This document shows, one piece after another, positions 1,484 through 19,520 of a DNA stretch of 20,000 bases. Within the stretch, counting starts at the first letter, position 1. Every line of letters begins with the position of its first letter. The DNA comes from an uncultured virus (IMG/VR IMGVR_UViG_3300034062_002951) (taxonomy: Duplodnaviria; Heunggongvirae; Uroviricota; Caudoviricetes). The translations under genes were made by a program, and so were the position numbers. The notes under the pieces were generated by a model. The model saw only the letters and a list, made by a program, of their open reading frames with translations. It made no database searches and was not told the DNA's origin. Location: IMG/VR virus record IMGVR_UViG_3300034062_002951. The stretch is one strand, 5' to 3'.

Positions 1484-2175
1484 TCCCCATTCGCAAGCTC
1501 TATGTGTACGAAAAGCTTGAACAAATAAACGCACCAGAGGGACGTGTTTACGGCGACGACAGATTGCCAAGCGTCACCCGTATCCTGTCGGCTACTAAGG
1601 ACCGATCGCACCTTGACGCGTGGGCCGCGAGGGTTGGTGAGGAGGAAGCGGAGCGTATCAAAAACGAAGCCGCCACGATCGGCACTCACATGCACAACGT
1701 TATCGAGCGCATGATTGCTTATAGGGATTTACCACGTCCAACCAACTGGCTTATGACTAAGGGTTATGAGATGGGGTACAAGTTAATTAACACTTACTTT
1801 CCCTATATGTCAGAAATATGGGGGTCAGAGGTGTCTCTTTATTACCCTGAGAAATATGCAGGGACGACCGACTTTGTGGGCGTGTACCGTGGGCGGCCAG
1901 CCATTGTTGACTTTAAGCAGTCCGTCAAACCTAAGCGCGCGGAGTGGATTGAGGACTATTTTCACCAGCTTGCCGCCTATGCTTTGGCCCATGACATCAT
2001 CCACGGCACGAATATCGATTTTGGAGCCATCCTGGTTAGCGTTCAAAACGGCACGACGCAAGAATTCACGACCACTGGCCGTGAATTTCAGAACCACAAG
2101 GATGCTTGGATGAAGCGTGTCGAGCAGTTTAAGCAGCAGGCGGTGCCGCTCCCTGAGACGCCAGCATCGGACTGA
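1471..2175 (+). CDS. PD-(D/E)XK exonuclease (MGME1/Cas4/RecB-like phage nuclease)
   Basis: 234 aa. LPSVTRIL, GTHMHNVIE, E-x-x-L (SEVSL), YAGTTD, IVDFK and QLAAY motifs. Overlaps the helicase end by 13 nt. Confidence 0.88.
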   Translation: MVDLIPIRKLYVYEKLEQINAPEGRVYGDDRLPSVTRILSATKDRSHLDAWAARVGEEEAERIKNEAATIGTHMHNVIERMIAYRDLPRPTNWLMTKGYEMGYKLINTYFPYMSEIWGSEVSLYYPEKYAGTTDFVGVYRGRPAIVDFKQSVKPKRAEWIEDYFHQLAAYALAHDIIHGTNIDFGAILVSVQNGTTQEFTTTGREFQNHKDAWMKRVEQFKQQAVPLPETPASD

Positions 2176-5100
2176 TGGAGTCATTGGGGAACAGCGACTG
2201 GAACATTGCACGACTGGTTGACGATTGAGCGCCGGGAGCAGGAGCTTGTGCACCAGGTTTCTTGTCAAAGAGGCCAGGGACGCCTTTGGACGGCACTGAT
2301 GGAGGCAGCTTGCGTACTGGTGGCGGAGAACCGGGAGGCCCTGTTTGAATCAGATTTGCTCTTGGAACTTCGCTCTCGTAGATACCCAAAGGTGCTGGGA
2401 TTCGAGTGGCTATCGTACGGCCAAGCAATTGAGCAAAGTTTTCCACAAAGCCCGCCTCTTGCTGCTTGTTCACACCACGGCGTAACAAGGCGGCCATCAT
2501 CTGTGGGTCTTGCAGGGCCTTTTCTATGGTACTGCGCACCATAAAGTTAGGCATCTTGTCAAAGATTTCACGTACGTACTTCGAGCCGGCGGAGGCAGCA
2601 ATCAAGGAGCCTGGTCCGCCGCCAGAGACAGAAGTACCGATATTGGCACCGACGATGCGCATGGCCAACTCTTCTACAGCACCTGCGCCGTCCAAGACTT
2701 TGTTGAGCTCATTCTTGTTGCCCATGGCCTTTTCAACACGCATCATTGGAATCATCAGACGCTTAAGGTTGTTCACCTCTTGTGGTGTTATGAGACCCTG
2801 GCTTCGCATGATGTTGACAATTGAGGGCTGACCCTGGCCAAGGGGCTTCAACAATGCATCATTAAATGCCTGAATGCTGAAGCGTCCATCTCCACCTGCT
2901 TTGGTGTAGGCGTAGTCAAACAAAGTGGACTTCAGCCCATTGACTGCATCGGGCCCACCTGCACCTGCAAGCTTGGCTATGTTGGAGATATTCTTGACCG
3001 GGAACTTACTGTTAAGCGCATCAATGACAGCATTGGTTGGGTTCTCAAACTTCAACACTTGAGCAAACGCAGATTGATTTGCAATGGTCTTGTTGATTTC
3101 ACTGTTCTGGTCCTGTATTGCACGGAATGCAAGTTCTGCTCTTTTCGCGTCTTGCAAGTCGGCATAGATGCCCAGCTTCTCCAGCATAGGCTGGTTCTCA
3201 GCAGCAAACTTCTCCAGCATGCGAGGATTCAAGCGACCAGTTACGGGGTCAATTGCCTTTGCCGCAGCCAATCGATATACGCGGTCTTGTGCGTCTCGAA
3301 TGGAGGCCACTTGTATGTCTGCCAAATCTGCTTGAGGCTTCAAAGCCAGGGCCTGTTTGCTACGTTTGCCAAACTTACTGACTGCCTCGTCGTACTGAGT
3401 ACGCATGAACTTCACTGAGTCCTCAATGTCATTCATGCGCATTGCTGTCACGTCGGCGTTGGAGCCAAATGCTCTTGACACCAATATCTCTGCGGGCATG
3501 CGCTCTTTGCCTACAACGGTCTTTGCTCCGGAACCCGTGATGCTTGCCTCACTGGCAAAGGTGCGAGTAAACGTGTCGTTCAAGGCCTTGGAGAAACTTC
3601 TTGCTTGATCAAACGCAGGAGCCTTCAATGTCTCCAAGTCTTTCAGGATGCCCTCGGCCAAAATGCCGTAGAACCTTGCGTCTCCCATCTCGCCTTTGCC
3701 AGCGGCATCACGTGCAAGAGACAACAAGTTACTCCGGTAGTTGACCATCTCGCCAACATCCATCTCCTTAAGTTCTGGAACAAAACGTTCAGGCACTTGC
3801 CCTGACTCCAAGAACTCATCCGTATTGCGGCCAAGCTTGTACTTCATGACCGAGGCATCATCAATACCAAAAGTGCCAATAATATCCTTGACCAGCTTGG
3901 GCGTAGTGTTCTTGTAGACGACGTCGGCAATGCTCAGGGTTGCGTCTAGGAATGCTCGGCTTGTGTTAGTGGGCTTAATCTCTGCACCCCTGACCACTGT
4001 CTCACGCAGAGTGATCATGGGCCATTTGCGTGTTTTTTCGTATATTGCTTGTGCCTCTGGCCCCTCCATCGGAACCTTTTGTGGAGGCCCTTGGACACGT
4101 TTAACAGGGGCAATCTGGCGCAGGCCCTCGGCCCACAACTCGGATTCCATGTCCCGTGCTTGGCGCAATGCAAGTTCTGTTTCTGTCTTTACGATGTCGC
4201 CAATTTCTCTACGAGCAGCAGGTGTGTCCTTGGAAATTTTGGCAATCTTGCTGGCCGCTGTTGCATCCGCCGCCGCAAGACGGCCATTCAGCATGGCGGT
4301 ATGGGCATCTTGTTCCATCTGAGCTGCTTTGCGCAAAGCATCGGGAGTGCCTATTTCTCTCAGCTTCTGAACCAACAATTTGTATGCCATTAGGGAGTCT
4401 TCACCCTGCTTAACTGTTTGGCCAGAGAATTCTGCATTGGTACGAGCAAGCGATGTTTCCAGGGCAGACAAAGTCATGCTGCCTGTTTTCTGTGCGGCTG
4501 TTGGCGTAGCTCCCCCTGTAGTAGGTTGCTCCAAGCGGCGAATAAGCAGAGGAATATTTTCTCCTGTGCCATTCAAAATCTCATACAAGCGAGCAGCGGC
4601 TTTTCCCTCTTTGGCCGCAGGTCCCGCGCTGTTTCTAAGGTTCTTCGCCCAGTCGATTACGTCACCAACTGAGTTAACCACGAAGCGGCCTGGGGCAAAC
4701 ATGCCGCCCATTACTTCCGCGCCAAAACGCACACCTTTTTGGCCTGGAAAAAGCTCTTCTGCAAAGAAGGCTCCTGTACCTGCTCCGGCGGCCGCGATTG
4801 TTTCAGCAGTACCAAAGCTAATTGGTGATCTGCGAGCAGCCTCTCCCATTGAGGAGATAAACCGTGAGACGCGGTTCCCGGTGAATTTAGGCAGGAAGTA
4901 GAGCGATGGAGAAAACGCAATCGATGTACCAAACGTGCGGCCACCCTCACGCACAGACAACAAGTCTTCACGCAGGGGAGGCTCTTCGTACTCTTCGGGG
5001 AACATCTGTTGCAAAGCGTAGTTCACGCCCATGCCGCCCAAGACGCCACCAACAAACCCTAAAGGAGGGCCCAAGGGTGCGGCAGGGCCCATGAATGGCG

Positions 5101-5380
5101 CAGCCATAGTACCTGCCCGCAGGCCAAGCATACCGCCAGCGGAGATGGGAGCGCTTTCTCGCAGTCCCATCCTGGTACCTTGGCCAACAGCCTCGACCTT
5201 TTCGCCAAGTGTTGGAAACTCCGACTGAGAAATCTGTTGCAACGCTTTTAACTGATCTGCTGCGTTGGCAGCGGGAACAGGACGACGGCCTTGCGTTAAC
5301 GCAGGAGGCGGCTGACCTCCTCCTGTGTCAGGCAAAGTCAGAGCATCAAGTTGCTTTTGAATTTCTTCAGGAGTTGCCAT
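2129..5380 (-). CDS. Large putative internal virion/DNA ejection protein
   Basis: 1083 aa, predicted mostly helical by composition. Gly/Ala-rich hydrophobic segments near the N-terminus (GFVGGVLGGMGVNYAL) and a Pro-rich C-terminal tail. Last gene of the virion operon, the usual position of podovirus ejection proteins. Function inferred from position. Confidence 0.65.
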   Translation of the reverse strand: MATPEEIQKQLDALTLPDTGGGQPPPALTQGRRPVPAANAADQLKALQQISQSEFPTLGEKVEAVGQGTRMGLRESAPISAGGMLGLRAGTMAAPFMGPAAPLGPPLGFVGGVLGGMGVNYALQQMFPEEYEEPPLREDLLSVREGGRTFGTSIAFSPSLYFLPKFTGNRVSRFISSMGEAARRSPISFGTAETIAAAGAGTGAFFAEELFPGQKGVRFGAEVMGGMFAPGRFVVNSVGDVIDWAKNLRNSAGPAAKEGKAAARLYEILNGTGENIPLLIRRLEQPTTGGATPTAAQKTGSMTLSALETSLARTNAEFSGQTVKQGEDSLMAYKLLVQKLREIGTPDALRKAAQMEQDAHTAMLNGRLAAADATAASKIAKISKDTPAARREIGDIVKTETELALRQARDMESELWAEGLRQIAPVKRVQGPPQKVPMEGPEAQAIYEKTRKWPMITLRETVVRGAEIKPTNTSRAFLDATLSIADVVYKNTTPKLVKDIIGTFGIDDASVMKYKLGRNTDEFLESGQVPERFVPELKEMDVGEMVNYRSNLLSLARDAAGKGEMGDARFYGILAEGILKDLETLKAPAFDQARSFSKALNDTFTRTFASEASITGSGAKTVVGKERMPAEILVSRAFGSNADVTAMRMNDIEDSVKFMRTQYDEAVSKFGKRSKQALALKPQADLADIQVASIRDAQDRVYRLAAAKAIDPVTGRLNPRMLEKFAAENQPMLEKLGIYADLQDAKRAELAFRAIQDQNSEINKTIANQSAFAQVLKFENPTNAVIDALNSKFPVKNISNIAKLAGAGGPDAVNGLKSTLFDYAYTKAGGDGRFSIQAFNDALLKPLGQGQPSIVNIMRSQGLITPQEVNNLKRLMIPMMRVEKAMGNKNELNKVLDGAGAVEELAMRIVGANIGTSVSGGGPGSLIAASAGSKYVREIFDKMPNFMVRSTIEKALQDPQMMAALLRRGVNKQQEAGFVENFAQLLGRTIATRIPAPLGIYESEVPRANLIQTGPPGSPPPVRKLPPSVPSKGVPGLFDKKPGAQAPAPGAQSSTSRAMFQSLFPNDSISPMLASQGAAPPAA

Positions 5381-5383
5381 GGC

Positions 5384-7438
5384 TTATTTCTTCCACATTG
5401 ATACTCTACCGTTCCACAAAAAGTTCGTGCCATTAGGAAGTGCCTGCACTTCCTCAATGGTGTACACGCGGGGAGGAATTCCAGCTACTTTATTGAAATT
5501 TTTGAGTTCTTTTATTTCATCCAACGCGGCTTGCCTAGATGCTACAGGGAAATTTGGATTGACCGCATCTATCTCGGCAGCTTTTAGCCGCTGGTTAAGG
5601 AAGTCCTCAATACCGATCAAGCGATTGCCCAGAGAGCTTGGGTTGTCAAAAAACGCTGGCGCAATATCTATCTCTTTTTCAATTGCTTGCATCTCTGAAA
5701 CAGGGTAGCGTGGGTTTGCTGCCAACGCCTTGATCAGGGATCGTCTTGCTGAATCAAAGAAAGTACGTGCCTCATCGGCCTTGGCATCCACTTGACCAAA
5801 GACGCGCAAGACGGGCAGTGTCTTGAGGTACTGAATAGGGCCTGCAACCAAAGGGCGTTGGTTCCACAAAGTCTTCTGGTCTTTAGGGGTCTTAAGCGCC
5901 ACGTAGGCATCTTTCGCCTCGGCAGGCACATCAGCAGGCACTGTTCCGGGAGTCCCGCTGATGTCTCCAGCGGCACCGGGAGGAGCAGCAGGCGGTTTTG
6001 CTCCTCCGGGCCTTGGACCACCTGGAGCAGGAGCAGCAAGTGTTCCCCCTGTGTAATATGGAATAGGTCTTCCAACCAGCTGATATGCAGTGATCACATG
6101 CGGAGGTAGTTTCTTTTTGTTTATTACTGTCACATAGCTCTTGTTTCCTGTAACAGGGTCGGTCCTCTCTTCTCGTTGAGAGGTCTCCTGTGTGTAATCG
6201 GTTACTGCGGTATCTAATTCAAAGAGCTGCTCGGGAGAGAGTTTTCCTTCGGCAAGCAGCGGGGCAGTTCTTGCAAACATATTTAATTGTTCATTTGTTC
6301 CAAACGGCCCCTTTGGCGGCTTGTTAAGGTTCTTTTGTTTCTCTGCTTCAATTCGTGCTTCAGCAGCAACAATGTTCCCAAACAAAGCCCTCTTTTGTTT
6401 TATAAGCTCATTGTTTGCTGCTTGGATTTGATCGATATCCTTCTCTGACGCTTGCAACGCGGCCATCTTGATAGCGCGCTCGCCTTTGTCAATCTCCGCC
6501 ACACGTGCCATCATGTCCTGAGGCAGGGTTCTGACCGCACCCGCCATGCGAGAAACAAAGCTTCCACGCAACGGACGGCCTTGGTCATCGACGTTTGCGC
6601 CAAAGTTAAAGGCCCGTTGGCCGAGAGAAAATAGCATCTGTGCTTCGCTCGCGCCCTTGGTGTCACCGAGAATCGTGCGGTATGCAGGCTCACGCCCACG
6701 AGCCAATGCTCCCAGATCGGGAACCGTTTGTGGCTGCCTTGCAATCAACTCTTGCATGCCTTGTTGGGCCGCAGAAACCATGTTGGTGGGGTATTTAAGT
6801 AAAGGTGCTTCTCTTTCGCTTGGGACTGTTTCATCGGCAGGGGTCACTCCGTCCTCAGTAGACCCTGCCTGAAAATTTTGAACATAGCCGCCTCTTGCCA
6901 TAGCCATGGGAGGTGCGCCAGCAATACCACCTGTCTCAGGTGGAGGGGGACCTGCCATGCCTTGTGGGCCACCAGCGCCACCCATCAGTGCCGCCATCAT
7001 CTCAGGAGGCATACCACCAGGGGCAGCTTCAGGAGGAGCGCCCGGGGGCATCATCTCAGGGGGCATTCCAGGAGGAGGTGCCATTGGAGGCTGGGGACCT
7101 TGCATCAGTTCGGCTGAAGCAGGAGCAGCACCAATGCCTTGCTGTTGGGCAAGAACAGGCTGCAAAAGAGCAAGCACTTCTTGGGGCGTGTCCTTGGCAG
7201 CACGGTACCCGACCATGTCCGCCAGTTCATCAATACGCGCTTCGACTGAGCGCATGTCCCCGCGTAAGTTGTTCATCAAAATTTCAGGAGACTTTGGCGA
7301 GCGGCCCATGACCTCAGAGGCAACACGGTCCTCTTCGTTGGTGTCTTCCGTATCGTCGTCTTCCATCTCCATCATGTCCTTGAAACCAGCCATGATGCCC
7401 ATGTTTTCGACGTCTTGTTCCATCATTTTGTTCTTCAT
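5384..7438 (-). CDS. Putative internal virion/ejection protein
   Basis: 684 aa. Acidic, Met-rich N-terminus, Pro/Gly/Met linker, MAMARGG motif, coiled-coil-like middle. Tightly packed between neighbouring genes. Confidence 0.6.
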   Translation of the reverse strand: MKNKMMEQDVENMGIMAGFKDMMEMEDDDTEDTNEEDRVASEVMGRSPKSPEILMNNLRGDMRSVEARIDELADMVGYRAAKDTPQEVLALLQPVLAQQQGIGAAPASAELMQGPQPPMAPPPGMPPEMMPPGAPPEAAPGGMPPEMMAALMGGAGGPQGMAGPPPPETGGIAGAPPMAMARGGYVQNFQAGSTEDGVTPADETVPSEREAPLLKYPTNMVSAAQQGMQELIARQPQTVPDLGALARGREPAYRTILGDTKGASEAQMLFSLGQRAFNFGANVDDQGRPLRGSFVSRMAGAVRTLPQDMMARVAEIDKGERAIKMAALQASEKDIDQIQAANNELIKQKRALFGNIVAAEARIEAEKQKNLNKPPKGPFGTNEQLNMFARTAPLLAEGKLSPEQLFELDTAVTDYTQETSQREERTDPVTGNKSYVTVINKKKLPPHVITAYQLVGRPIPYYTGGTLAAPAPGGPRPGGAKPPAAPPGAAGDISGTPGTVPADVPAEAKDAYVALKTPKDQKTLWNQRPLVAGPIQYLKTLPVLRVFGQVDAKADEARTFFDSARRSLIKALAANPRYPVSEMQAIEKEIDIAPAFFDNPSSLGNRLIGIEDFLNQRLKAAEIDAVNPNFPVASRQAALDEIKELKNFNKVAGIPPRVYTIEEVQALPNGTNFLWNGRVSMWKK
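6995..7069 (-). repeat. Intragenic 21-nt direct repeat encoding GMPPEMM twice
   Basis: catcatctcaggaggcatacc (6995-7015) vs catcatctcagggggcattcc (7049-7069), 19/21 identical, within the Pro-rich linker. Confidence 0.8.
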
Positions 7439-7447
7439 ATTGCCCTC

Positions 7448-8554
7448 TTAAAAGAGTCCAGCTTTCTTTGCCCCAGCGGCAGTTGATAACACACCCAGGC
7501 CCACTCCCAACGCTTGTTGGAAGGGGCTTGCAGAAGGCTGGCTGACCGCCGCCGTTGACATCTGAGTCGATGGTGCGCCCTTGTAAATGTCTGACAGGAA
7601 GCCTGCTTGTTGGTAAGGCGAGTACACCTTTTGCAACTCCGTCGCACGCTGTGCATCCAGTTGTTGCTGATTCATCGCCTGCTGTGACTGACCGACGTTA
7701 TACAAGAAGTTAACGTCGCCTTGTCTCATCGCCTGTGCTGTCTGGCCGAGAGCACCTTGTTGGATACCCAACTGGCCCATCTGTGCGCCCAGTTGTCCAA
7801 GACCTGACGACATTTGCGCGCCTTGGCCAAACTCTTGGCCAGCCAGTGAGCCAATGCCTGCGGCCGCTTGGCCAAGACCTTGTCCCATGGCCAGTTGTCT
7901 TTGTTTGGCTGCTTCAAAGGTTCCCATGCCGGCCTGTTGGGCTTGGCCATAGTTCTGTGCGTAGTCTTGGAAGATGCGCTGCGACATAACGTCTTGCAGG
8001 CCTCGCTCCATCTCTGCGCGCTGTACGCCTTCACGGGTGCCACCAAAGGCACCGGAGCGAACAGCTTGAGCCGCTGCACCTTGGCGTGCAATGTCGCCTT
8101 GACGGCGCATCTCTGCCAAGGCCTGTTGCGTGACCTGAGCCTGATACGGGTTCATGAATTGCGCGGCCATGGTGGGGTCGTATTGACCGCCGCCTTGCGC
8201 CAAGGCTCCAATGCCTGCACTCAAAACATTTTGGGCCTCGCCGTACTGGTCTCGGGTGTCTGCTCCACGCAAGACATTGGCCGCTTCGCCGGTTGTCCCG
8301 TAGGCCTGGGTTACCGCTTGGTTGGCAGAAGTCAGATATGGGTCAAAGGCTCCAATCCCCTGCGCTATTGCAGCGTTCATCGCCGTCTGTTGAGCAGGAG
8401 CAAAGCCAGCTACGTTGTAGCCTGGAAGTTGTTCAGCTAAAGGCGTACGGCCTTCGTTAAAAGCCAGTGCCTTGGCTTGCTTTAGTAGGTCAAGCTTATA
8501 GGCTTCAATCTCCGGGGCTTCCCGGACAATTTGTTGTGTTGTTGTGGTAGCCAT
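7448..8554 (-). CDS. Putative DNA transfer/pilot (ejection) protein, Gln/Ala/Gly-rich
   Basis: 368 aa. FMNPYQ and GAFGGTR motifs, quasi-periodic GQGLGQ/GLGQLG stretch, hydrophobic C-terminus (ALGVGLGVLSTAAGA). Confidence 0.62.
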   Translation of the reverse strand: MATTTTQQIVREAPEIEAYKLDLLKQAKALAFNEGRTPLAEQLPGYNVAGFAPAQQTAMNAAIAQGIGAFDPYLTSANQAVTQAYGTTGEAANVLRGADTRDQYGEAQNVLSAGIGALAQGGGQYDPTMAAQFMNPYQAQVTQQALAEMRRQGDIARQGAAAQAVRSGAFGGTREGVQRAEMERGLQDVMSQRIFQDYAQNYGQAQQAGMGTFEAAKQRQLAMGQGLGQAAAGIGSLAGQEFGQGAQMSSGLGQLGAQMGQLGIQQGALGQTAQAMRQGDVNFLYNVGQSQQAMNQQQLDAQRATELQKVYSPYQQAGFLSDIYKGAPSTQMSTAAVSQPSASPFQQALGVGLGVLSTAAGAKKAGLF

Positions 8555-8556
8555 AA

Positions 8557-10977
8557 TTAGCCTTTCACCATTCCGCCTTTTTCAAGCGATTTCATAAGTT
8601 TGTACATCCGTGCAGCACCTTTACGGCGACTTCCGTTTCCAGCATTGCGCACGGCCCTGGCGGTAAATACAAACTCACCGTCTGACAACATAGCAGGAAT
8701 ATCATCCGAAGTTCCTGTTCCAGGGCCGTTGATAGGTCCTGTCTTACGAGGGAATTCCCTAATTGATCCGCCCTTGGCGGCCATTATCGGTGCTGCTGTA
8801 CCGATGAAAGGTGAATAGTACTGTTGAATAGATTGTGTTCGACGACGGCCATACTCAGGAGAATACTGCGCCTGCATAATCCCAGTGGGTGTAACCACTC
8901 CTGGGGCAGCAGCACCTTGTCCACCTGCATACAGGGTTGCACGAGTGGGATCATATGCGCCCGCACCTTGGGACTGGTAGTTATACAAGCTGCCAGAGAA
9001 TGCTTGTGGGTTGTCTCGCATGTAGTCCGTTCCTGTGTAAGCAGGGTCGTATATAGGTGCGTCGTCCACAGGAGGCGTCTCGAACCCGCCAGCTAAGTAC
9101 GTTGCACCCAATCCGGCTGCGGCCAAAGGGGCATACTTAGTAAAGAAGCCAGGGGCATTGGCTTCATAGGCAGCGTCATAGGCAGCTTCTGCTCCTGCTG
9201 AAGTAGGCTTAATCCCTGCGGACTCCATTCTCACTCGGTAGGCAGCTACTGCCTTATCTCCTGCAAGGGCAGCCTGTTCGTTTCCTTGTTGTATGGCGGG
9301 ACGGTCAGTAGCAAAATTTTCGTTGTAAAAATCTTTTACAGGGCCAAGAACTTGTTCTCCTCTCGCGCCAAGGGAATATGTGCTTTTGTCTACTACGGGA
9401 GCAGGGCCTCGGCTCTCGGGTGAGCCAGTAGACACGAAGCTTCCGTCCTCCACTGGAACAAAGCTAGAGCTCTGTTGGGGAATAGTTACCCCAGGAGCAT
9501 TTCCAATTCCCGCGTTCAACAGGCCTACGCCTCCGGGAGGTGCATTAAAACCGCCTGTCAAAGAGATTGGCTGGCGCTGTACGCCCAGTCCCGCTCCAGG
9601 AGACATTCCCTGAGCCTGGACATAATCAGAGGCAGTGTTCAGGCTGTAGTCACCTGGGGCCCTGTCCATCAAATACTGTGACTGCGCAGACAAGTTTGGG
9701 GTGTACCCTGGCGCGTTGGCCACCATGTCCGCTTGTTGTGGGGAGATCGTAAAGTTGTCTACGGGCGCAGCAGGTTCTCCTGTGTAATAGGGAGAGTACT
9801 TGTCTGTAGCAGGCAAAGGGAGATTCTCGGCCGCAGTGCCTACAACGCCTGTACTCTCAATTGGGGCAAGAGACAGGTTTGATCCATCTGCTGCTGCATC
9901 GGTAGGAGCCCCGGTCCGTGTTCCGCCAGCCTGGCCACCAGGCAAATAGCCCCTTTGCTGACCATAACCAACGCCTGCGGCTGTTACGCCACCAATTGCA
10001 CCCGCTTTCAGGGCCTGTTCCGGAGACATACCCGATGCCAAACCAAAGCCCGTACCCAGGGCCGCGCCCGTGAAGCCTTGATTGAGCAAACTACCCGCCG
10101 CGCCAGGCATGTAGCTACTGATAGACGGGGCGATTGAGCCGCCGATGTAGCCCATGGCCGCACCCTTGAGAATATCCTGAATGTTCCCGCCGCCCAATGC
10201 CGCCATGCCGCCACCAACAATTGCTGCCGTGCCAGCGGTGCCAATACCAAAGCCCGCTGCAATTGGACCCAGAGCCATGGTTGCGCCAATTGTCAAAGCA
10301 ATCCGCCCAATGTCGCTTTTAGCAACGTCTTTTACAACGTTTACCACTGCCTTTGCAGGGGCAGTAACAGCCTTCCACACGTCACTAAAAAAGCCGTATT
10401 CAGGCAGTCCTGTGTATGGGTTACGTGTACCAAGACCACCTGCCTGACGCAACATTTCGGCTTCTTGTGGGTTGATGTGGGCAAGCATGGTATCTCGTCC
10501 ACGGCCTCGGGCTTGCAGTGCTTTGGCAGCGTCTGCCAATCCACCACTCTTCATTGCCATAGGTTCTTGTGGTCCGGGGCCCATGGCCTCTGGAGAGACG
10601 TTCTGTGCTTGTTGGATGCGTTGCTCGTTCAAAGCAGCAAGCATGGTGGAAACGAACCCTTGATCAAACTCAGGTGGGAAGTCACCTTCATCAATCGCCC
10701 CCGCTTCAATACCCGCACGGATGATTTCCTTGTACTGATCGGGGTACTGCATCATGTATTCAAGCAGCGTAATAAACGCCTCTATCTCGCTAGGCTTGAG
10801 ATTAAGTTGCGATAGGCTAGAGCCAATGGCAGTCTTGTATTCGCCAAAGGCCTGCGGGTCGGTCTCCTGCATAGCAGAAGATGCCGCGTTGTACGCGTCT
10901 AAGCTTGAGACGTAGCCTCGTGGGGGTTGCTGCTGTTGCATGGGCATGGGAGCCGCCATGATGCCTTCATTCGCCAT
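8557..10977 (-). CDS. Putative internal virion/ejection protein with a tape-measure-like C-terminal motif
   Basis: 806 aa. GRGRDTMLAHINPQE...NPYTGLPEY domain, long Gly/Ala hydrophobic region, C-terminal AKGG...GPGTGTSDDIPAMLSDGEFVF. Strong SD GGAAAGGA. Confidence 0.68.
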   Translation of the reverse strand: MANEGIMAAPMPMQQQQPPRGYVSSLDAYNAASSAMQETDPQAFGEYKTAIGSSLSQLNLKPSEIEAFITLLEYMMQYPDQYKEIIRAGIEAGAIDEGDFPPEFDQGFVSTMLAALNEQRIQQAQNVSPEAMGPGPQEPMAMKSGGLADAAKALQARGRGRDTMLAHINPQEAEMLRQAGGLGTRNPYTGLPEYGFFSDVWKAVTAPAKAVVNVVKDVAKSDIGRIALTIGATMALGPIAAGFGIGTAGTAAIVGGGMAALGGGNIQDILKGAAMGYIGGSIAPSISSYMPGAAGSLLNQGFTGAALGTGFGLASGMSPEQALKAGAIGGVTAAGVGYGQQRGYLPGGQAGGTRTGAPTDAAADGSNLSLAPIESTGVVGTAAENLPLPATDKYSPYYTGEPAAPVDNFTISPQQADMVANAPGYTPNLSAQSQYLMDRAPGDYSLNTASDYVQAQGMSPGAGLGVQRQPISLTGGFNAPPGGVGLLNAGIGNAPGVTIPQQSSSFVPVEDGSFVSTGSPESRGPAPVVDKSTYSLGARGEQVLGPVKDFYNENFATDRPAIQQGNEQAALAGDKAVAAYRVRMESAGIKPTSAGAEAAYDAAYEANAPGFFTKYAPLAAAGLGATYLAGGFETPPVDDAPIYDPAYTGTDYMRDNPQAFSGSLYNYQSQGAGAYDPTRATLYAGGQGAAAPGVVTPTGIMQAQYSPEYGRRRTQSIQQYYSPFIGTAAPIMAAKGGSIREFPRKTGPINGPGTGTSDDIPAMLSDGEFVFTARAVRNAGNGSRRKGAARMYKLMKSLEKGGMVKG

Positions 10978-10982
10978 GATTA

Positions 10983-11044
10983 TCCTTTCCAGTTGATGCC
11001 AAAGGCCCCATGGGCCGCGCGTCGGGAAAGGACGCGAATGTGGC
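10983..11044 (-). promoter_or_regulatory. Putative structured 5' leader (three-way junction plus anti-SD loop/pseudoknot)
   Basis: Stems GCCA/TGGC, CGCGTC/GACGCG and GGCCC/GGGCC. TCCTTTCC (11025-11032) is the exact complement of the SD GGAAAGGA (10983-10990). Confidence 0.6.
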
Positions 11045-11048
11045 TGTA

Positions 11049-11078
11049 ATTATGTCGCATTTCCCTAGTTCCTGTCCA
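11049..11078 (-). promoter_or_regulatory. Putative sigma70-like promoter
   Basis: On the - strand, TGGACA (11073-11078), an 18-nt spacer, then CATAAT (11049-11054). Each hexamer is a 5/6 match to consensus, and it reads into the only sizeable gap in the annotated operon. Confidence 0.45.
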
Positions 11079-11397
11079 TCTCTAAATAGGACAGGTAAAA
11101 GTCAGCGGTCGCCAGTGAACTGGTGACTTTAATCACGTCGGTTGCCTCCAATATGCAAGGCACCCCGCTCAAGACATCCAAAGTCTGGTTCGTGGGCAGC
11201 GAGTAGACCTTCAACAAACAATATGCAGTGGCCGCGCCAAGCGGGTAGACGTTGACCGTCAAGGCGGTTGTGGAAGCGTTTCTGTTTGTCACCCGCAAGG
11301 ACGAAAGCACCGCCGTGTTGGCGGCTGGCGCGGTGTAAATCGTGGTCTCAGTCGCAGCCGCTGGGGTCAAGAATTTCCGAAAGTACTTATTTGCCAT
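11065..11397 (-). CDS. Small beta-rich virion protein (hypothetical)
   Basis: 110 aa, alternating hydrophobic/Thr pattern, 2 nt from the upstream gene, in the tail region. Confidence 0.65.
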   Translation of the reverse strand: MANKYFRKFLTPAAATETTIYTAPAANTAVLSSLRVTNRNASTTALTVNVYPLGAATAYCLLKVYSLPTNQTLDVLSGVPCILEATDVIKVTSSLATADFYLSYLEMDRN

Positions 11398-11399
11398 GA

Positions 11400-12107
11400 T
11401 CAGTTTGCCGATACAAAGTTAATGGTGAGAATCACTGATGGAATGGCAGGGCGCGTGGGGCTCGTGCCAGCGGCATAGTGCTCCAAATAGATGTCAATGT
11501 TGTCTGACCACCAGGCAACCTCTAAATAATCGTTGGTGGGATCATCTACAGTGAAAATACCAGTAATCGCTGGAACTATGTGGGACCAAATGGTGGCGGT
11601 TTTACGAGCAGGCACATCAAAGCGCGTGTTGCTTAAGGGGTAGTTGACCCCGGTGTCCTTGGCCCACACTTCAAACTCACCTGCTGTATTGCTTCGATTT
11701 GTCACTTGCAAGGTGAAAGTCACTAGATATTGACCAGCGCATGGTACCTTGATCCGTGAGCCGCTTTCCACGCTGATGCCGTTGGAAAACGCAGGAGCAA
11801 AAGTAAGCAAGTTCTCCCCTGTGATACTGGCGTTTGTCTGGTCCTGGTCCGAGATCATCATTGCCTGAGGCAAGATGATGCCGTTACTGTTTTGAAATCC
11901 ACGAATACCACCAGCAAACCCGCCTCCCGCTCCGCTGTTCATGGCCATCCATGTTGCAGCGCCAGCGGTGTTCTCACTGGGGACAGGCGTATACGTGTTG
12001 TTGAGTTGAAGAATAACCTGCTCAAGGGAGCGCACCAGTTGGTTGAACTGCGACGCATCATAGGCAGGCGATGCGTTGGGCAGTCGAACGTTGTTGATCT
12101 TACTCAT
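11400..12107 (-). CDS. Virion fibre/needle-like protein (N-terminal helix plus possible C1q/BclA-like beta domain)
   Basis: 235 aa. Amphipathic helix FNQLVRSLEQVILQLN, Gly linker, then SRIKVPCAGQYLVTFTLQV, resembling C1q/TNF-like trimeric heads. ATGA overlap with the upstream gene. Confidence 0.55.
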   Translation of the reverse strand: MSKINNVRLPNASPAYDASQFNQLVRSLEQVILQLNNTYTPVPSENTAGAATWMAMNSGAGGGFAGGIRGFQNSNGIILPQAMMISDQDQTNASITGENLLTFAPAFSNGISVESGSRIKVPCAGQYLVTFTLQVTNRSNTAGEFEVWAKDTGVNYPLSNTRFDVPARKTATIWSHIVPAITGIFTVDDPTNDYLEVAWWSDNIDIYLEHYAAGTSPTRPAIPSVILTINFVSAN

Positions 12108-13957
12108 CTCAATCCATCCGGTTGGATGTCAACGCGCAACGTTCCATAACGCCAGTTGGTATCTATATCACTGCTCTCAATGCGCAAGCTGATCTGTCTC
12201 CCGCGCGCGCGAGTGTCTACCTTCTGCGTGTTCGGAGCAATCACATAGGGGTCAAGCGAGCTTGGACTTGCACTGGCCTGTGGGTATGGGCGCAACAACA
12301 GGTGAACAGTTAAGTTGCCCTCTTGGTTCTTGAAGTCAGGGATAAACCGCTTCATAAACAGCATCTGGTCGCCGTCACCAATATCAAAGTAGCCAGACTT
12401 CACATAAGCCGTGATGGCCGCTCCATTGCCGTTCTTGCCATCTTCTTGGTTGTATATCAGTGAGCGACCAGCGGTCAGGCCGTTGATTGTGCTGATGGTG
12501 GCGGCGGTGCTGTCGGGGAAGTATTCGGACGCAGTTGGGTTGCTGTACGTTCCCGAGTCTGTCCACGCGGTACGAGGCATGCTGCCAATAGACCAGACAT
12601 TCTCTAGGTAGTTGTACGTCACAAACCGATCAATGTAGTCAGCAGTGAACGAGCAATACCACCAAGTTACTTCGTTGAACTGTGTGTTGACTCCGATGTT
12701 TACCTTGGCGTTTTGAACAACGTTGATGTCTTTGAAGACGTAATCCTGAACAGTACAAGCAAGCTTTTTAACAGTTCCGTCGAACATGAAGAAGGCGTCT
12801 TTGTCCATCCAAAACGCAACGCCGTTGACGTCAGCAGAGGCATGCGGGCCGATCAGGCCGCAGTTAGAGCCCAGTTGCTGGAAGCCAAAAGTGTAAGGAG
12901 GACCGATGTACTGCATACCATGCAAAGCACTATCTGTCCAAATAAGAATCTGTCCTCTGGAACGCACAGCAGAAACAATGTGGTTGCCGTCCGTGAGCCG
13001 TTGTCCGCCGGCCGTGTTAGTTGCACTCTCAACAAAACTGTTGATGTCCTCCTGATTGGAGAAGCGAACAAACATGGGGTCCTGGGTCGATGGAGACCCA
13101 ATCGTGTTCTCCGTGCCAAAGCACACCAAGTGCCTGTCTGGCGTAGACACAACCGCATAGGTGTTCTTTGTTGGAGCGCCTGATATGGCCGTAGCACGTG
13201 TGGTAATACCTGCGCTTGTATCAAACAAATAGATAGCGCCGTTCGCAATCTGGCATACAACGTCTTCGCCAAAATTATCAAACTGCCAGACCCGCGAATC
13301 AAGGGCCACGGAAGTAGATGGCGGCCTTGGTGTTCCCCAGGTGCTCGCGCCCCACGTGCCTACGCCCCAGCCGTAGTCAACGGCGCTGACAGCAGTGCCG
13401 ACGTTGATCTGATAAGCAGCGTCCGCAGTGCCTACAGCGTTAGCTGTGGACGTGGCAGCAGCAGGAGAAAGGATGGTGTATTCATTGGCATTTGTGATGA
13501 ATTGAACCTCAAATTCACCAGTCAGACTTGCGTTAGAAATGCCTCCAGGGTTTCCTGTTACGTTTGAAAACGTAACAAAGTCTCCTGCAATACAACCATG
13601 CGCGGTGTCGTTGACGGTGACGGTAGTGAGTGTATTGACCGTGTCAAAAGTAACTCCAACAGCCGTTCTGCGAATGGGCGTGACATCTCCCCACAAAGCG
13701 CCATACAGCGCATACAGCTTTCTGTTGGTGCCCACGATCATGTAGGGCGAACCATCTAAACCATTCCAGGTGTATATCTCACTGACCATGCCAACTAAGT
13801 AGGCAGCAGTCTCGTTGAATTGCGTCCAGCCGCCCATCTTCTCGGGCAGGCCATAGCGAAAGCGCACGTAGTCCGAGTCAATCCAGCCGCCTTCAGCGCC
13901 GTACTCAGTGTTTTGTTTGTCTACACCAGGTTTGAGAACAATTCGTGCGAGTGCCAT
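12104..13957 (-). CDS. Tail hub/nozzle (P22 gp10/tail tubular B-like) protein
   Basis: 617 aa, beta-propeller-like composition (WQFDNFGEDVV, FVRFSNQED, FQQLGSNCGLIG, AFWMDKDAFFMFDGTV). C-terminal RARGRQISLRIES...WRYG. Inserted small beta domain VTVNDTAHGCIAGDFVTF. Lies upstream of the ejection genes. Confidence 0.72.
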   Translation of the reverse strand: MALARIVLKPGVDKQNTEYGAEGGWIDSDYVRFRYGLPEKMGGWTQFNETAAYLVGMVSEIYTWNGLDGSPYMIVGTNRKLYALYGALWGDVTPIRRTAVGVTFDTVNTLTTVTVNDTAHGCIAGDFVTFSNVTGNPGGISNASLTGEFEVQFITNANEYTILSPAAATSTANAVGTADAAYQINVGTAVSAVDYGWGVGTWGASTWGTPRPPSTSVALDSRVWQFDNFGEDVVCQIANGAIYLFDTSAGITTRATAISGAPTKNTYAVVSTPDRHLVCFGTENTIGSPSTQDPMFVRFSNQEDINSFVESATNTAGGQRLTDGNHIVSAVRSRGQILIWTDSALHGMQYIGPPYTFGFQQLGSNCGLIGPHASADVNGVAFWMDKDAFFMFDGTVKKLACTVQDYVFKDINVVQNAKVNIGVNTQFNEVTWWYCSFTADYIDRFVTYNYLENVWSIGSMPRTAWTDSGTYSNPTASEYFPDSTAATISTINGLTAGRSLIYNQEDGKNGNGAAITAYVKSGYFDIGDGDQMLFMKRFIPDFKNQEGNLTVHLLLRPYPQASASPSSLDPYVIAPNTQKVDTRARGRQISLRIESSDIDTNWRYGTLRVDIQPDGLR

Positions 13958-13960
13958 GAC

Positions 13961-14194
13961 TTATCTAAATCCTGCGGTTTTCTTTGCAATCTTCTTTGGT
14001 TGAGCTACAAACTGCTTTCCTGCCGCCTTGCCTTTGCGCTTGGCCTTGGTCGTGGCCGCATATTCAGCCGGAGACAAAGACTTGATAGCTGCTTCAGGGA
14101 GATACCTCTCACCCGTTTTTGACGAAGGCTTCCCAGACTTAGTGCGCCATTTCTGGTCGCCCCAGTTTTTAAGGGATTGCTGTGGGGCTTTCAA
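13961..14194 (-). CDS. Small basic hypothetical protein (resembles DUF5872-type phage proteins)
   Basis: 77 aa, Lys-rich, with QQSLKNWGDQKWRTKSG and ERYLP. TTG start overlaps the upstream TGA (TTGA, 14191-14194). Confidence 0.7.
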   Translation of the reverse strand: MKAPQQSLKNWGDQKWRTKSGKPSSKTGERYLPEAAIKSLSPAEYAATTKAKRKGKAAGKQFVAQPKKIAKKTAGFR

Positions 14195-14382
14195 TCTCTG
14201 TACCCGCCGCCAGCGGCCTTATATTTCTTGGCCACAAGCTGGGCTTTCCTGGCCGACCACTCTCCCGCGCCTGTGCCTTGTGTCGCGGCGGCTTTTACCT
14301 GAGACACGATCTTCTTGCGCAGAGTAGGCTTTGTGTAGTTGCCCGCAGCGTTAACAGTAGATTTTTTGGGTTTTGCTTTCAT
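14191..14382 (-). CDS. Small basic hypothetical protein
   Basis: 63 aa, Lys-rich, NYTKPTLRKKI...GEWSARKAQLVAKKYKAAGGGY. ATG lies 1 nt after the endolysin stop. Confidence 0.75.
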   Translation of the reverse strand: MKAKPKKSTVNAAGNYTKPTLRKKIVSQVKAAATQGTGAGEWSARKAQLVAKKYKAAGGGYRD

Positions 14383-14383
14383 C

Positions 14384-14848
14384 TCAGGCCATTAATCCAG
14401 GGACATACTGTGTTTTACCAGCGACTTTCATGGCGGTCAACTCTTGTTTCTTAAGATTGGCCGGGTCAAACGACACGTGCACCCAGCCGCTATCGGGTAT
14501 ACCCGGAGTGTAGAACTCCAAGATCAACTGGGTGTAGTCCAGATTATCCATGATCCATTGGGCAAGTTCTGCGTTGGGGACACCAGGAATCTCTATATCG
14601 GCTGCTCGGCCAAGGCAATGGTCTGAGGTACGAGACCCTTTCACCGCTGCATTGGATTCAGGACTGCGATAGCCTGAGTTCACTTTGACACCTTTGCCAA
14701 AATGGTCGCGCACGGGCTGGAGAACTTTCTCACACAGCAGGCGCAAAGCTTCAATTTCAACTTCACCGGGAGTATTGTCAAAGCCCATACGCAGGGCAGT
14801 CTCTGATTTGGTCAGTTCATGCAGGGAGAAGTTGGCGGTCAGGTTCAT
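14384..14848 (-). CDS. Endolysin, peptidase M15A-like Zn peptidase
   Basis: 154 aa. SGYRS, SDHCLGRAADI (H-x6-D Zn ligands) and WVHVS (third His). No signal peptide seen. ATGA-coupled to Rz. Confidence 0.9.
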   Translation of the reverse strand: MNLTANFSLHELTKSETALRMGFDNTPGEVEIEALRLLCEKVLQPVRDHFGKGVKVNSGYRSPESNAAVKGSRTSDHCLGRAADIEIPGVPNAELAQWIMDNLDYTQLILEFYTPGIPDSGWVHVSFDPANLKKQELTAMKVAGKTQYVPGLMA

Positions 14849-15309
14849 TTAAAGCTCCTCATTTGGTTGTAGGTATCAATACAGGCGTTGAGACTGCGGA
14901 TGGCTTGGTCGCCTCGGCTGGTGAGATCGACAAGAGCTTGAGCAACTCCTCGGTCAAGCTCGGCTCTTGTTTCTGTATCTCCACTGGGAGGGGTGGAATC
15001 TGCGGAGGCTGATACGGGGCAGGAGGCTTGGACAGGAATGAACAGCCGACGCTCGCCAGAGGCAATATCAGTACGCAGCTTAGTTTCTTTAGCTTTTGCA
15101 ACATTGTTGGCTTTCCTTAAAGTTTGGGCATATGTCTGGGCAACTTCCCCCATACGCTGTTCTGTTTCTCGTGCCTTGGCGTTCAGGGCTGCAATCTCAA
15201 TCTGCTGGCGCTCGTACTCATTTTGTTCACCGCTGTAATACCCAGCACCAAAGCTGCCCAGCACCGCCAAAACGATGCCAAGCAGGACGTAAGGATTGAA
15301 TAGGCTCAT
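14845..15309 (-). CDS. Rz: Inner-membrane spanin (Rz-like)
   Basis: 154 aa. N-terminal TM (YVLLGIVLAVLGSFGAGYY), coiled coil, then LRTDIASGERRLFIPVQASC and RGDQAIRSLNACI, typical of lambda Rz-like proteins. Contains a nested lipoprotein ORF. Confidence 0.85.
   Translation of the reverse strand: MSLFNPYVLLGIVLAVLGSFGAGYYSGEQNEYERQQIEIAALNAKARETEQRMGEVAQTYAQTLRKANNVAKAKETKLRTDIASGERRLFIPVQASCPVSASADSTPPSGDTETRAELDRGVAQALVDLTSRGDQAIRSLNACIDTYNQMRSFK
14859..15104 (-). CDS. Rz1: Outer-membrane spanin lipoprotein (Rz1-like), fully embedded in Rz
   Basis: 81 aa in another frame. Basic N-terminus, hydrophobic core, lipobox-like SVGC, Pro-rich mature part. ATG preceded by SD AAGGA. Confidence 0.82.
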   Translation of the reverse strand: MLQKLKKLSCVLILPLASVGCSFLSKPPAPYQPPQIPPLPVEIQKQEPSLTEELLKLLSISPAEATKPSAVSTPVLIPTTK

Positions 15310-15629
15310 GGCTTTGGTGGCTCATCGCTATCAGTGGCTTCAGCCTTGGCGCTTGCGTTGGCAATTGCCTTGACTCCTGAACGACCCGCAACACCGCCAA
15401 GCACCCCAGTGATGAAGACCATTATTGTTGAAATCTGCTGTGTATACACCTTGTCGATTGCCGCCATGCTGCCATTCATAGGCTGGGTGACAAACGAAAC
15501 TGAGTACAGAAACATACCCATTGAGGCCAGCAGGATGGTCACCAAGACCACAATGACAAATGCCCAAACCCTGACTTCAATCTCGTCGGAACTCAAGCGG
15601 CTATTCGGTTTGTATCCAATGGTGGGCAT
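15306..15629 (-). CDS. Two-TM membrane protein, holin candidate
   Basis: 107 aa with two hydrophobic helices (VWAFVIVVLVTILLASMGMFLYSV and ISTIMVFITGVLGGVAG) and a charged C-terminus. Directly upstream of the spanins and endolysin. Confidence 0.65.
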   Translation of the reverse strand: MPTIGYKPNSRLSSDEIEVRVWAFVIVVLVTILLASMGMFLYSVSFVTQPMNGSMAAIDKVYTQQISTIMVFITGVLGGVAGRSGVKAIANASAKAEATDSDEPPKP

Positions 15630-15811
15630 TACTTTTTCTCCTCTGGTTTGACAAGCATTTCAGGGCAAGTACCGGCAGCGGTACAGATAGGTGGTTTGCA
15701 TTCAGCATTTTCCCAGTTATTGGGGTTTTGGCATGGGTAGCGGTAACGGTCTTCACAACCGGCTGCAAAGACCAACATGGCGGACAGTATCCAGATTTCA
15801 TAGACGTTCAC
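15629..15811 (-). CDS. Small Cys-rich lipoprotein
   Basis: 60 aa. Signal peptide ending FAAGC (Cys19) plus four further Cys. GTG start overlaps the upstream stop (GTGA). Its stop overlaps the next ATG (TAATG). Confidence 0.75.
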   Translation of the reverse strand: MNVYEIWILSAMLVFAAGCEDRYRYPCQNPNNWENAECKPPICTAAGTCPEMLVKPEEKK

Positions 15812-15972
15812 TTATCTTTCTCCCGTTTCTGTTGTTCAACTTCACGCCTTAACTTTTCCATCTTTTCAATTTGCTGCTTGGCCTCTTGCTTGGTTTGCAG
15901 CACATCTATATACAGCATACCCAAAAAAGGCAACAACAGAACTACAAGCACACAGGCTGCTATCCATCCCAT
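15808..15972 (-). CDS. Single-TM plus coiled-coil membrane protein (54 aa; alternative start at 16095 gives 95 aa)
   Basis: MGWIAACVLVVLLLPFLGMLYIDVLQTKQEAKQQIEKMEKLRREVEQQKREKDK. The ATG at 15972 is coupled to the upstream stop (TGATG). Confidence 0.7.
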   Translation of the reverse strand: MGWIAACVLVVLLLPFLGMLYIDVLQTKQEAKQQIEKMEKLRREVEQQKREKDK

Positions 15973-16652: not shown

Positions 16653-16666
16653 ATGCGAACGCTCAT

Positions 16667-16879
16667 TTACATGGTGGAGCCAGAGGCCGCTGGGATGGTT
16701 GTGACCTGGATGGAGGTGCTCTTCTTAAGGTCAAGAGGCGTATTGCAATCGGAGCAGGTGTCCGCCTCGAGTTCACTCTCGTCCAGGTCGTAGCCACAGC
16801 TTGCGCACACGATTTCAATTTCGTGTGCCGGCTCTATGACGCCATTAGAGAGAGTCGTCGGAAGTTTGAATAGCTTCAT
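16667..16879 (-). CDS. Small Zn-ribbon protein
   Basis: 70 aa with CASC and CSDC pairs. Co-oriented with the operon and fills the gap between neighbours. Confidence 0.7.
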   Translation of the reverse strand: MKLFKLPTTLSNGVIEPAHEIEIVCASCGYDLDESELEADTCSDCNTPLDLKKSTSIQVTTIPAASGSTM

Positions 16880-19518: not shown

Positions 19519-19520
19519 TT

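What the first reader, a model, noticed from the sequence alone, without database searches (positions are those of the whole stretch)
10978..11078. Candidate cis-regulatory RNA: three-way junction with a hairpin loop that pairs with the SD of the first ejection-protein gene
Seen: the only substantial gap in the annotated late operon reads, on the - strand, GCCA-CATT-CGCGTC-CTTTCCC-GACGCG-C-GGCCC-ATG-GGGCC-TT-TGGC-ATCAACT-GGAAAGGA-TAATC-ATG. This gives two GC-rich hairpins closed by a short GCCA/TGGC stem. TCCTTTCC (11025-11032, mostly the loop of the first hairpin) is the perfect 8-nt complement of the SD GGAAAGGA (10983-10990). A TGGACA-N18-CATAAT promoter candidate would start transcription near 11041-11045, at the 5' edge of the structure. 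Known: loop-to-SD pseudoknots control translation in preQ1, SAM-II and SAM-V riboswitches and in protein-bound operators. I do not recognise this sequence as any of those. Inference: a possibly undescribed phage riboregulator that sets the dose or timing of four membrane-active ejection proteins.
Basis: partly seen in the sequence, partly recalled or inferred. Interest (0 to 1): 0.82.

Follow-up and report, generated by a model that had tools for sequence, protein, structure and literature searches.

The report
Phage leader RNA hiding ribosome site
A small folded RNA that matches no Rfam family sits in front of the probable DNA-injection genes of a group of uncultured aquatic phages, where one loop can pair with and hide the ribosome-binding site, probably to keep these proteins scarce and to tell apart messages made from two different promoters.

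Summary
Real and conserved; no Rfam match. The element occurs in 147 of 219 distinct upstream regions of the homologous gene, including phage DSL-LC04, once per genome (5 of 5). Both hairpins (P1, P2) and the closing stem P0 covary. Loop-SD pairing is supported by wobble changes and by repeated joint loss of loop and extended SD, not by clean compensatory pairs.

Two corrections. (1) The promoter probably starts at A11041 (A at position 7 or 8 after the -10 in 60 of 62), inside P0, so the three-way junction should form only in read-through mRNA, as in T4 gene e. (2) The deepest-conserved part is the P1-C-P2 tandem hairpin, kept even where SD pairing is lost, which points to a second, binding-site role.

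Best reading: a translational lock on the first gene of a probable ejection-protein operon, folding differently in read-through and locally started mRNA. Which mRNA is ON is unresolved. 'Membrane-active' is weakly supported; nothing indicates a riboswitch ligand. The scan had not recorded this sequence; it has noted similar leaders in other phages. It may be among the unnamed candidates of PMC10690425, whose alignments I could not read.

The parts
11073..11078 (-). -35 hexamer of an internal sigma-70-type promoter; overlaps the last codons of the upstream gene
   Evidence: In 17 of 62 non-redundant homologues an equivalent hexamer lies wholly downstream of the upstream stop, so it is kept apart from coding. 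Spacer 18 in 60 of 62 where 17-19 was allowed; the 62 were selected on this promoter pattern.
11049..11054 (-). -10 hexamer
   Evidence: P1 begins 11-12 nt after it in 55 of 62.
11041..11041 (-). Predicted transcription start of the local promoter (inferred, not mapped)
   Evidence: A at position 7 or 8 after the -10 in 60 of 62 and a pyrimidine-purine step there in 58 of 62; non-overlapping position pairs give 8-33 and 14-38.
11041..11044 (-). P0 5' arm, mostly upstream of the predicted start, so complete only in read-through mRNA
   Evidence: Cognate vs non-cognate duplex -5.97 vs -4.82 kcal/mol; at most 1 pair left in the local transcript in 33 of 49 elements with P0 of 4 bp or more.
11018..11036 (-). 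P1 hairpin, 6 bp with a 7-nt pyrimidine loop (11030-11024)
   Evidence: 98.6% of cells paired; two-sided changes at pairs 2-6 among 76 non-redundant elements.
11024..11033 (-). Anti-SD: loop plus the top of the P1 5' strand; 6 bp as pseudoknot, up to 9 bp if the top of P1 is displaced
   Evidence: 93.5% of pseudoknot cells paired, mostly one-sided changes; base after the 8-nt SD is C or T in 31 of 35 against 4 of 16 in element-less homologues.
11017..11017 (-). Single C between P1 and P2
   Evidence: C in 75 of 76.
11004..11016 (-). P2 hairpin, variable loop, covarying stem
   Evidence: 4 of 5 pairs with two-sided changes; 4 bp or more in 72 of 76 against 33% in shuffles.
10998..11001 (-). P0 3' arm
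10991..11003 (-). Fixed-length spacer from the end of P2 to the SD (contains the P0 3' arm)
   Evidence: 13, 12 or 11 nt in 44, 11 and 3 of 59, while P2 itself spans 11-19 nt.
10983..10990 (-). Extended Shine-Dalgarno
   Evidence: The 7-nt form is present in 122 of 147 elements and 0 of 72 element-less homologues; of 22 gene starts printed for the window only this one has it.
8557..10977 (-). First regulated gene, 806 aa, probable internal virion (ejection) protein
   Evidence: Short C-terminal match to tape-measure PHROGs only; no Pfam; N-terminal 200 aa fold as a helical domain without a PDB match.
2129..8554 (-). Three further tightly spaced genes of the same operon (368, 684, 1083 aa)
   Evidence: 368-aa gene hits phrog_4287 DNA ejection protein; matching block in DSL-LC04 ends in a 'DNA transfer protein'; gaps 2, 9 and 3 nt.
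11065..11397 (-). Upstream 110-aa gene whose read-through transcript would carry the complete P0

Best explanation
A cis-acting translational lock at the head of a probable ejection-protein operon, whose fold depends on which promoter made the mRNA. Shown by comparison: P1, P2 and P0 are RNA helices, and the P1 loop and the extended SD are kept or lost together. Inferred: (1) loop-SD pairing hides the ribosome site by default, either as a pseudoknot on intact P1 or as a 9-bp helix that displaces the top of P1; (2) the local promoter starts inside P0, so long read-through mRNA from the tail/lysis block folds the full junction, which holds the SD at a fixed distance from the loop, while the local mRNA has only P1 and P2; (3) I favour read-through OFF and local mRNA partly ON (about 55:45), as in T4 gene e, with P1 folding first and giving ribosomes a short window before the SD is captured, as in the MS2 maturation leader. 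The effect would be a small, separately timed supply of low-copy virion proteins, shielded from the strong late transcript.
For: Conservation: 147 of 219 distinct upstream regions from protein-anchored searches (359 loci, 327 parsed), where the downstream N-terminal 200 aa are only 31-49% identical to the window's in the 30 aligned. Covariation: 13 of 23 pairs with two-sided changes, 83.5% paired against 35-53% for slid registers. P0: permutation p at most 0.002 with 43 identity clusters and at most 0.006 with 22. Joint loss of loop and extended SD in about five separate places on the protein tree (L144; L353; L362/L346; L736; L382-L849 group); P0 decays with them (-6.5 vs -1.8 kcal/mol, 59 vs 17 elements). 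Fixed P2-to-SD spacing. Opening the SD costs 5-6.5 kcal/mol in nested models of 55 homologues. Some lineages lack promoter and leader together, with the SD directly after the upstream stop (L147, L675, L676, L695, L701). Precedents: PMC3014915 section 29, PMC4615214 passages.
Against: No start site, probing or translation data. Nested energies point the other way on direction: P0 stabilises the SD-free fold (-17.7 to -21.6 kcal/mol against -23.5 for the SD-paired fold) and lowers the opening cost in 34 of 55 homologues, raising it in 19; the difference is weaker at 20 C (p 0.09). These models cannot score pseudoknots. RNAalifold predicted only 5 pairs of P1 on the MAFFT alignment. P0 is only 60% paired on that alignment, is under 4 bp in 10 of 59 elements, and its test weakens at 12 clusters (median p 0.012, worst 0.066). 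The pseudoknot lacks clean compensatory pairs because the SD is constrained anyway. The model does not explain why the P1-C-P2 sequence is kept where SD pairing is lost. Gene function is only partly established.
Confidence: 0.55

Rival explanations
1. Protein-bound operator: a phage or host protein recognises the P1-C-P2 junction and shifts the balance between SD-free and SD-paired folds (for example unassembled ejection protein repressing its own synthesis, or a late activator opening the lock). Compatible with the best explanation and may add to it.
For: Sequence, not just pairing, is kept at the junction: outer P1 pair C-G in 76 of 76, linker C in 75 of 76, purine on the 5' side of the first P2 pair in 76 of 76, also in elements without SD pairing. 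One copy per genome in 5 of 5 fits an autogenous operator. T4 gene 32 and 43 operators are the precedent.
Against: No RNA-binding candidate found: the N-terminal domain has no Pfam, PDB or named Atlas match. The downstream protein diverges widely while the site stays fixed, which fits a conserved host partner better than the encoded protein.
Confidence: 0.3
2. The tandem hairpin acts on transcription or mRNA life: a put-like RNA that binds host RNA polymerase and protects the long, poorly translated operon from termination, or a 5'-terminal stabiliser; the SD lock is a second module.
For: Double hairpin a few bases after a sigma-70 start, at a fixed distance from the -10, heading an 8.8-kb operon; kept without SD pairing in 23 of 147. 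HK022 put is a double hairpin of about 65 nt that acts on RNA polymerase (PMC8632103 passages).
Against: About 33 nt here against about 65 for put; no sequence comparison with put was made; only a weak terminator-like site inside the first gene, in a scan that finds fewer sites than shuffles; 72 of 219 homologues lack the element.
Confidence: 0.2
3. Same lock, opposite direction: local mRNA is OFF and P0 in late read-through mRNA keeps the SD free, so the operon is translated only late.
For: Nested energies: P0 favours the SD-free fold and raises the nested barrier out of it from 10.5 to 14.4 kcal/mol.
Against: A conserved promoter would then make silent mRNA; the fixed P2-to-SD spacing fits docking on the junction better than release; the average effect is about 1 kcal/mol.
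Confidence: 0.25
4. Small-molecule riboswitch with a loop-SD pseudoknot.
For: Junction plus SD pseudoknot architecture and conserved nucleotides.
Confidence: 0.05
5. DNA-level operator: the P1 inverted repeat binds a repressor just downstream of the promoter.
For: Inverted repeat at a fixed distance from the -10.
Against: Variation is wobble-type and one-sided (U-G 50, U-A 22 of 76 at pair 5); loop length varies from 3 to 8 nt; P0, P2 and the SD coupling are unexplained.
Confidence: 0.04

Closest known systems
SD-sequestering leaders of T4 genes e, soc, 49 and I-TevI (PMC3014915 section 29)
   Same: A promoter lies in the 5' strand of a leader helix, so read-through and locally started transcripts fold differently; SD sequestered; risky proteins downstream.
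   Different: In T4 the lost 5' strand is itself the anti-SD of a simple hairpin and the promoter is T4 late-type. Here the anti-SD stays in both transcripts, only the closing stem of a three-way junction is lost, the pairing is loop-to-SD, and the promoter is host sigma-70-type.
Levivirus (MS2) maturation-gene 5' UTR (PMC4615214 passages)
   Same: Low-copy virion protein; upstream complement of the SD held in a hairpin that excludes the final SD-paired fold; multi-arm leader.
   Different: RNA phage, larger cloverleaf, transient hairpin; here P1 is the most conserved helix and may coexist with SD pairing as a pseudoknot. No Rfam match.
HK022 put antiterminator RNA (PMC8632103 passages)
   Same: Double hairpin near a promoter at the head of a long operon.
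   Different: About half the size; coupled to an SD-pairing module; no evidence for polymerase binding.
preQ1, SAM-II and SAM-V riboswitches; int-alpA motif (RF02996)
   Same: Loop-to-SD pseudoknot (riboswitch features recalled; int-alpA description from scan note e1-5706974).
   Different: No Rfam match at gathering score or at E up to 10; structural-gene context.
Type I toxin mRNA leaders, e.g. timP (PMC11228461 abstract and start of introduction)
   Same: Leader fold blocks ribosome access by default; alternative folds including a pseudoknot.
   Different: In timP the pseudoknot activates and an antisense RNA exists; none was sought or seen here.

Membership tests
Any Rfam 15 family (includes preQ1, SAM-II, SAM-V, int-alpA as curated there) | Match to the family covariance model | tested here: not met
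   0 hits at gathering score in the window; two chance hits (E 3.9 and 6.1, far below gathering) in 10900-11150; 0 hits at E up to 1 in 12 homologous loci.
T4 e / I-TevI-type promoter-overlapping leader | A promoter starts inside the 5' strand of a leader helix | tested here: inconclusive
   Predicted from conserved A at position 7/8 and the place of the P0 arm; start not mapped.
T4 e / I-TevI-type promoter-overlapping leader | The strand missing from the short transcript is the one that pairs with the SD | tested here: not met
   The anti-SD (11032-11025) lies downstream of the predicted start and is in both transcripts.
T4 e / I-TevI-type promoter-overlapping leader | Long transcript repressed, short transcript translated | not testable with these tools
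   Nested folding leans the other way by about 1 kcal/mol and cannot score the pseudoknot.
MS2-type kinetic leader | SD complement held in a hairpin that excludes the more stable SD-paired fold | tested here: met
   -17.7 vs -23.5 kcal/mol, nested barrier 10.5 kcal/mol; P1 rarely forms at nested equilibrium (median probability about 0 in 55) yet is the best-conserved helix.
MS2-type kinetic leader | Translation only during a folding delay | not testable with these tools
   Needs refolding kinetics; a pseudoknot path would lower the barrier.
HK022 put | Double hairpin of about 65 nt | tested here: not met
   Double hairpin present but 33 nt (11036-11004); put size.
HK022 put | Factor-independent antitermination through RNA polymerase binding | not testable with these tools
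   Needs transcription assays.
Autogenous translational operator (T4 gene 32/43 type) | The encoded protein binds the leader | not testable with these tools
   No RNA-binding fold recognised.
Ligand-binding riboswitch | Metabolite-related downstream genes and a conserved ligand pocket | tested here: not met
   Always the same virion-gene family; junction strands variable.
Candidate viral structured RNAs of PMC10690425 | Sequence present in their IMG/VR alignments | tested here: inconclusive
   Motif strings absent from 3 of 6 supplementary files, whose tables list properties rather than sequences; alignment archives and PDFs unreadable.

The most novel reading that the evidence does not exclude
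A two-module phage leader: a miniature tandem hairpin that binds host RNA polymerase or another conserved host factor just after initiation, fused to a junction-pseudoknot that senses which promoter made the mRNA and sets ribosome access accordingly. One 60-nt RNA would couple transcription processivity and translation dose for a virion-assembly operon.
Probability: 0.15. Interest if true: 0.88.

Novelty: new variant of a known kind. Interest (0 to 1): 0.64.

Why it matters
Podovirus ejection proteins are packaged in about 4-30 copies (PMC8954989 passages; PMC8402733 abstract start), and two literature searches found no RNA-level control described for them. This leader is a compact, testable candidate, with natural variants that have lost single modules (SD pairing, P0, or promoter plus leader). 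It also extends the T4 rule 'promoter inside the leader helix' from simple hairpins to a junction with a pseudoknot, and offers a 33-nt conserved core whose partner is unknown.

Tried and rejected
Rfam: no match. Promoter-plus-SD pattern scan: mostly unrelated hits; those with loop complement in register all had the canonical core. Loop-plus-SD pattern scan: 94 of 120 canonical; the other 26 showed no P1 variant of this element. Cultured relatives HTVC023P, HTVC027P, HTVC103P and CRP-901: no match of model R1 in the 10-16 kb stretches fetched, not whole genomes. Extra copies per genome: none with R1; a loose core pattern gave 3 further overlapping-type hits in DSL-LC04 only, near the reversed-pattern control, and missed the known copy in G003. 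My idea that element-less homologues use a short anti-SD hairpin instead was rejected: opening cost above shuffles in 8 of 19, means 2.78 vs 2.78. Metatranscriptomes: 7 runs with small shares; 4 laid, contigs only, unstranded; several pieces cross the predicted start into the promoter, which fits read-through RNA or DNA and cannot map a start. Fold and Atlas searches of the downstream protein gave no function. RNAalifold on the MAFFT alignment recovered only P1. The first tree run mislabelled most rows through a pattern error and was replaced. No whole genome is held for the window. Supplements of PMC5737381 were unreadable and its main text does not mention int-alpA.

Full report
Observation. 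The region is the only gap over 14 nt among 22 junctions of the - strand block. The 8-nt loop-SD complement arises in 228 of 200000 shuffles. Alone, the fold is modest: z -2.19 for the junction, and with the SD included the nested MFE switches to an anti-SD:SD helix that melts P1. Rfam gives nothing.

Context. The window is a podovirus-like phage: helicase and exonuclease on +; tail fibre, Rz-like spanin, M15 endolysin, a virion structural protein and four long genes on -. The closest annotated record is DSL-LC04, a metagenome-assembled lake phage with the same gene order and the same 87-88-nt gap holding the element; its paper places it near Pelagibacter phages by terminase and predicts a Pseudomonadota host (PMC10611076, passages). 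More distant relatives are HTVC023P, HTVC027P and CRP-901; the stretches fetched from them lack the element. Of the four genes, the second hits a DNA-ejection PHROG and the first has a short tape-measure-like C-terminal match; they are rich in Ala, Gly and Gln, lack Cys, and show one weak hydrophobic segment in all. 'Ejection-protein operon' is probable; 'membrane-active' is an inference from T7 and P22 (PMC8954989, passages).

Conservation. An exact 19-nt P1 pattern hits 94 IMG/VR loci, nearly all before the same gene family. Of 359 loci, 327 could be parsed and 219 upstream regions were distinct; 147 carry a P1-type hairpin behind a -10-like hexamer (both required by my rule), 72 do not (a few starts among the 72 are misassigned). 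Proteins in the 30-sequence alignment are 31-49% identical to the window's. Model R1 finds one copy in each of 5 complete or near-complete genomes.

Helices. On a sequence-only alignment of 62 non-redundant leaders (135 distinct ones clustered at 90%, two truncated rows dropped) the four-helix structure is 83.5% paired, 13 of 23 pairs have two-sided changes, 0-7 of 500 shuffles reach the measures, and slid registers give 35-53% (the tool warns that relatedness can inflate the shuffle test). RNAalifold itself predicted only P1. Among 76 non-redundant protein-anchored elements P1 shows two-sided changes at pairs 2-6 and a U-G/U-A mix at pair 5; P2 has 4 bp or more in 72 of 76 against 33% in shuffles, with the register chosen for best pairing in both. 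P0 shifts by indels, so I tested it without alignment: each 5' segment pairs better with its own 3' segment than with others (-5.97 vs -4.82 kcal/mol; p at most 0.002 for 43 clusters, at most 0.006 for 22, median 0.012 for 12), a control segment shows no such effect, and about ten rows had the SD cut at a wrong place.

Loop-SD pairing. 93.5% of cells pair, mostly with one-sided wobble changes. The better evidence is joint loss: 119 of 147 elements have both loop and extended SD (118 plus one misfiled), 23 have neither, 3 keep the SD with a one-mismatch loop, 2 have an altered loop without the SD; 0 of 72 element-less homologues have the extended SD. On a FastTree protein tree of 99 representatives, midpoint-rooted and with several weak nodes, the losses fall in about five places. 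Two low-GC variants keep a shifted, wobble-rich complement (L736, L362). The base after the 8-nt SD is C or T in 31 of 35, against 4 of 16 in element-less homologues and 3 of 10 other genes, which fits a 9-bp helix invading the top of P1 (small controls). The P2-to-SD distance is 11-13 nt in 58 of 59 while P2 varies from 11 to 19 nt.

Promoter and start. The 62 leaders were selected on the promoter pattern, so its consensus is no test. Independent signs: spacer 18 in 60 of 62; the -35 lies wholly outside the upstream gene in 17 of 62; A at position 7 or 8 after the -10 in 60 of 62. A start 7-8 nt after the -10 is the usual bacterial geometry (recalled). That puts +1 at 11041. The P0 5' arm begins at positions 1-5 in 45 of 49 elements, and at most one P0 pair survives in the local transcript in 33 of 49. 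P0 covaries, so it must form in some RNA; read-through from the gapless upstream block is the obvious source. Metatranscriptome pieces cross this point but cannot separate RNA from DNA or map ends.

Mechanism. Shown: three helices, coupling of loop and extended SD, coupling of P0 with them (-6.5 vs -1.8 kcal/mol). Inferred: the SD is hidden by default (5-6.5 kcal/mol to open in nested models), and the two transcripts differ. T4 genes e, soc, 49 and I-TevI use this logic with read-through OFF (PMC3014915, section 29); MS2 uses a transient hairpin over the SD complement to allow brief translation of a low-copy virion protein (PMC4615214, passages). The fixed spacing and the junction geometry (1-nt link between P1 and P2; junction families recalled) suggest that P0 positions the SD at the loop, hence read-through OFF. 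Against this, nested energies show P0 favouring the SD-free fold by 3.9 kcal/mol in the window and about 1 kcal/mol on average, in 34 of 55 with 19 opposite. I leave the direction near even.

Unexplained. P1-C-P2 keeps its sequence where P0 and SD pairing are gone. A binding partner is likely; candidates are a translational regulator (T4 gene 32/43 type) or RNA polymerase, as with the larger HK022 put double hairpin (PMC8632103, passages). The downstream protein gave no hint.

Novelty. No Rfam match for the window or 12 homologous loci; no paper holds all six terms, and the 12 listed of 235 do not address it by title or abstract start. PMC10690425 clustered IMG/VR intergenic regions into 8495 candidates (passages); this abundant element may be among them, and the alignments could not be read. 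The scan's own index has no look-alike sequence but lists other loop-to-SD phage leaders. PMC11228461 was seen as abstract and start of introduction, PMC8402733 as a search listing.

Verdict. A real, uncatalogued phage leader RNA; a new variant of SD-sequestering leaders, with a probable promoter-of-origin twist and an unexplained conserved core. Interest 0.64.

Noticed in passing
L199, L202, L207, L373, L380, L707, L714, L719 and others, 20-50 nt before the homologous start: Homologues without the element mostly still have a -10-like hexamer just upstream of this gene (19 of 24 with credible starts, 9 of extended type; hexamer list chosen after looking), so an internal promoter for this operon seems general in the family.
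   Followed up: partly
L147, L675, L676, L695, L701: Lineages nested near element-bearing ones lack both promoter and leader; the SD follows the upstream stop directly, suggesting a switch to translational coupling.
   Followed up: partly
L736, L739, L821 (between -10 and SD): A low-GC variant appears to replace P0/P2 by a different stem around P1 whose 5' arm again lies in the first bases after the -10; seen by eye only.
   Followed up: no
L255, L272, L301, L330, L334 (match region): An unrelated conserved leader with two short hairpins between a near-consensus promoter and a similar extended SD recurs in five other viral contigs; not compared with Rfam.
   Followed up: no
L420, L456, L460, L477, L515 (match region): Another recurring arrangement in unrelated phages: an SD complement upstream of a -10-like hexamer and the SD downstream, i.e. 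the classic T4-type layout.
   Followed up: no
window 11073-11095: A 7-bp hairpin (about 11095-11071 on the - strand) covers the -35 hexamer and the last codons of the upstream gene; similar arms are visible in many homologues but overlap conserved codons.
   Followed up: no
window 8600-8780; L136 3900-5195; L135 4125-5144: The C-terminal motif of the 806-aa protein is shared with siphovirus tape-measure proteins and with Pelagibacter phage proteins in different gene positions (in HTVC103P, next to the portal gene).
   Followed up: no
window 1-20000: CGCG occurs 49 times against about 89 expected from base composition, yet the element holds two such sites.
   Followed up: no
L594, L607: Two bacterial metagenome-assembled genomes contain contigs with this phage element and gene; probably binned phage DNA, not host evidence.
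   Followed up: partly
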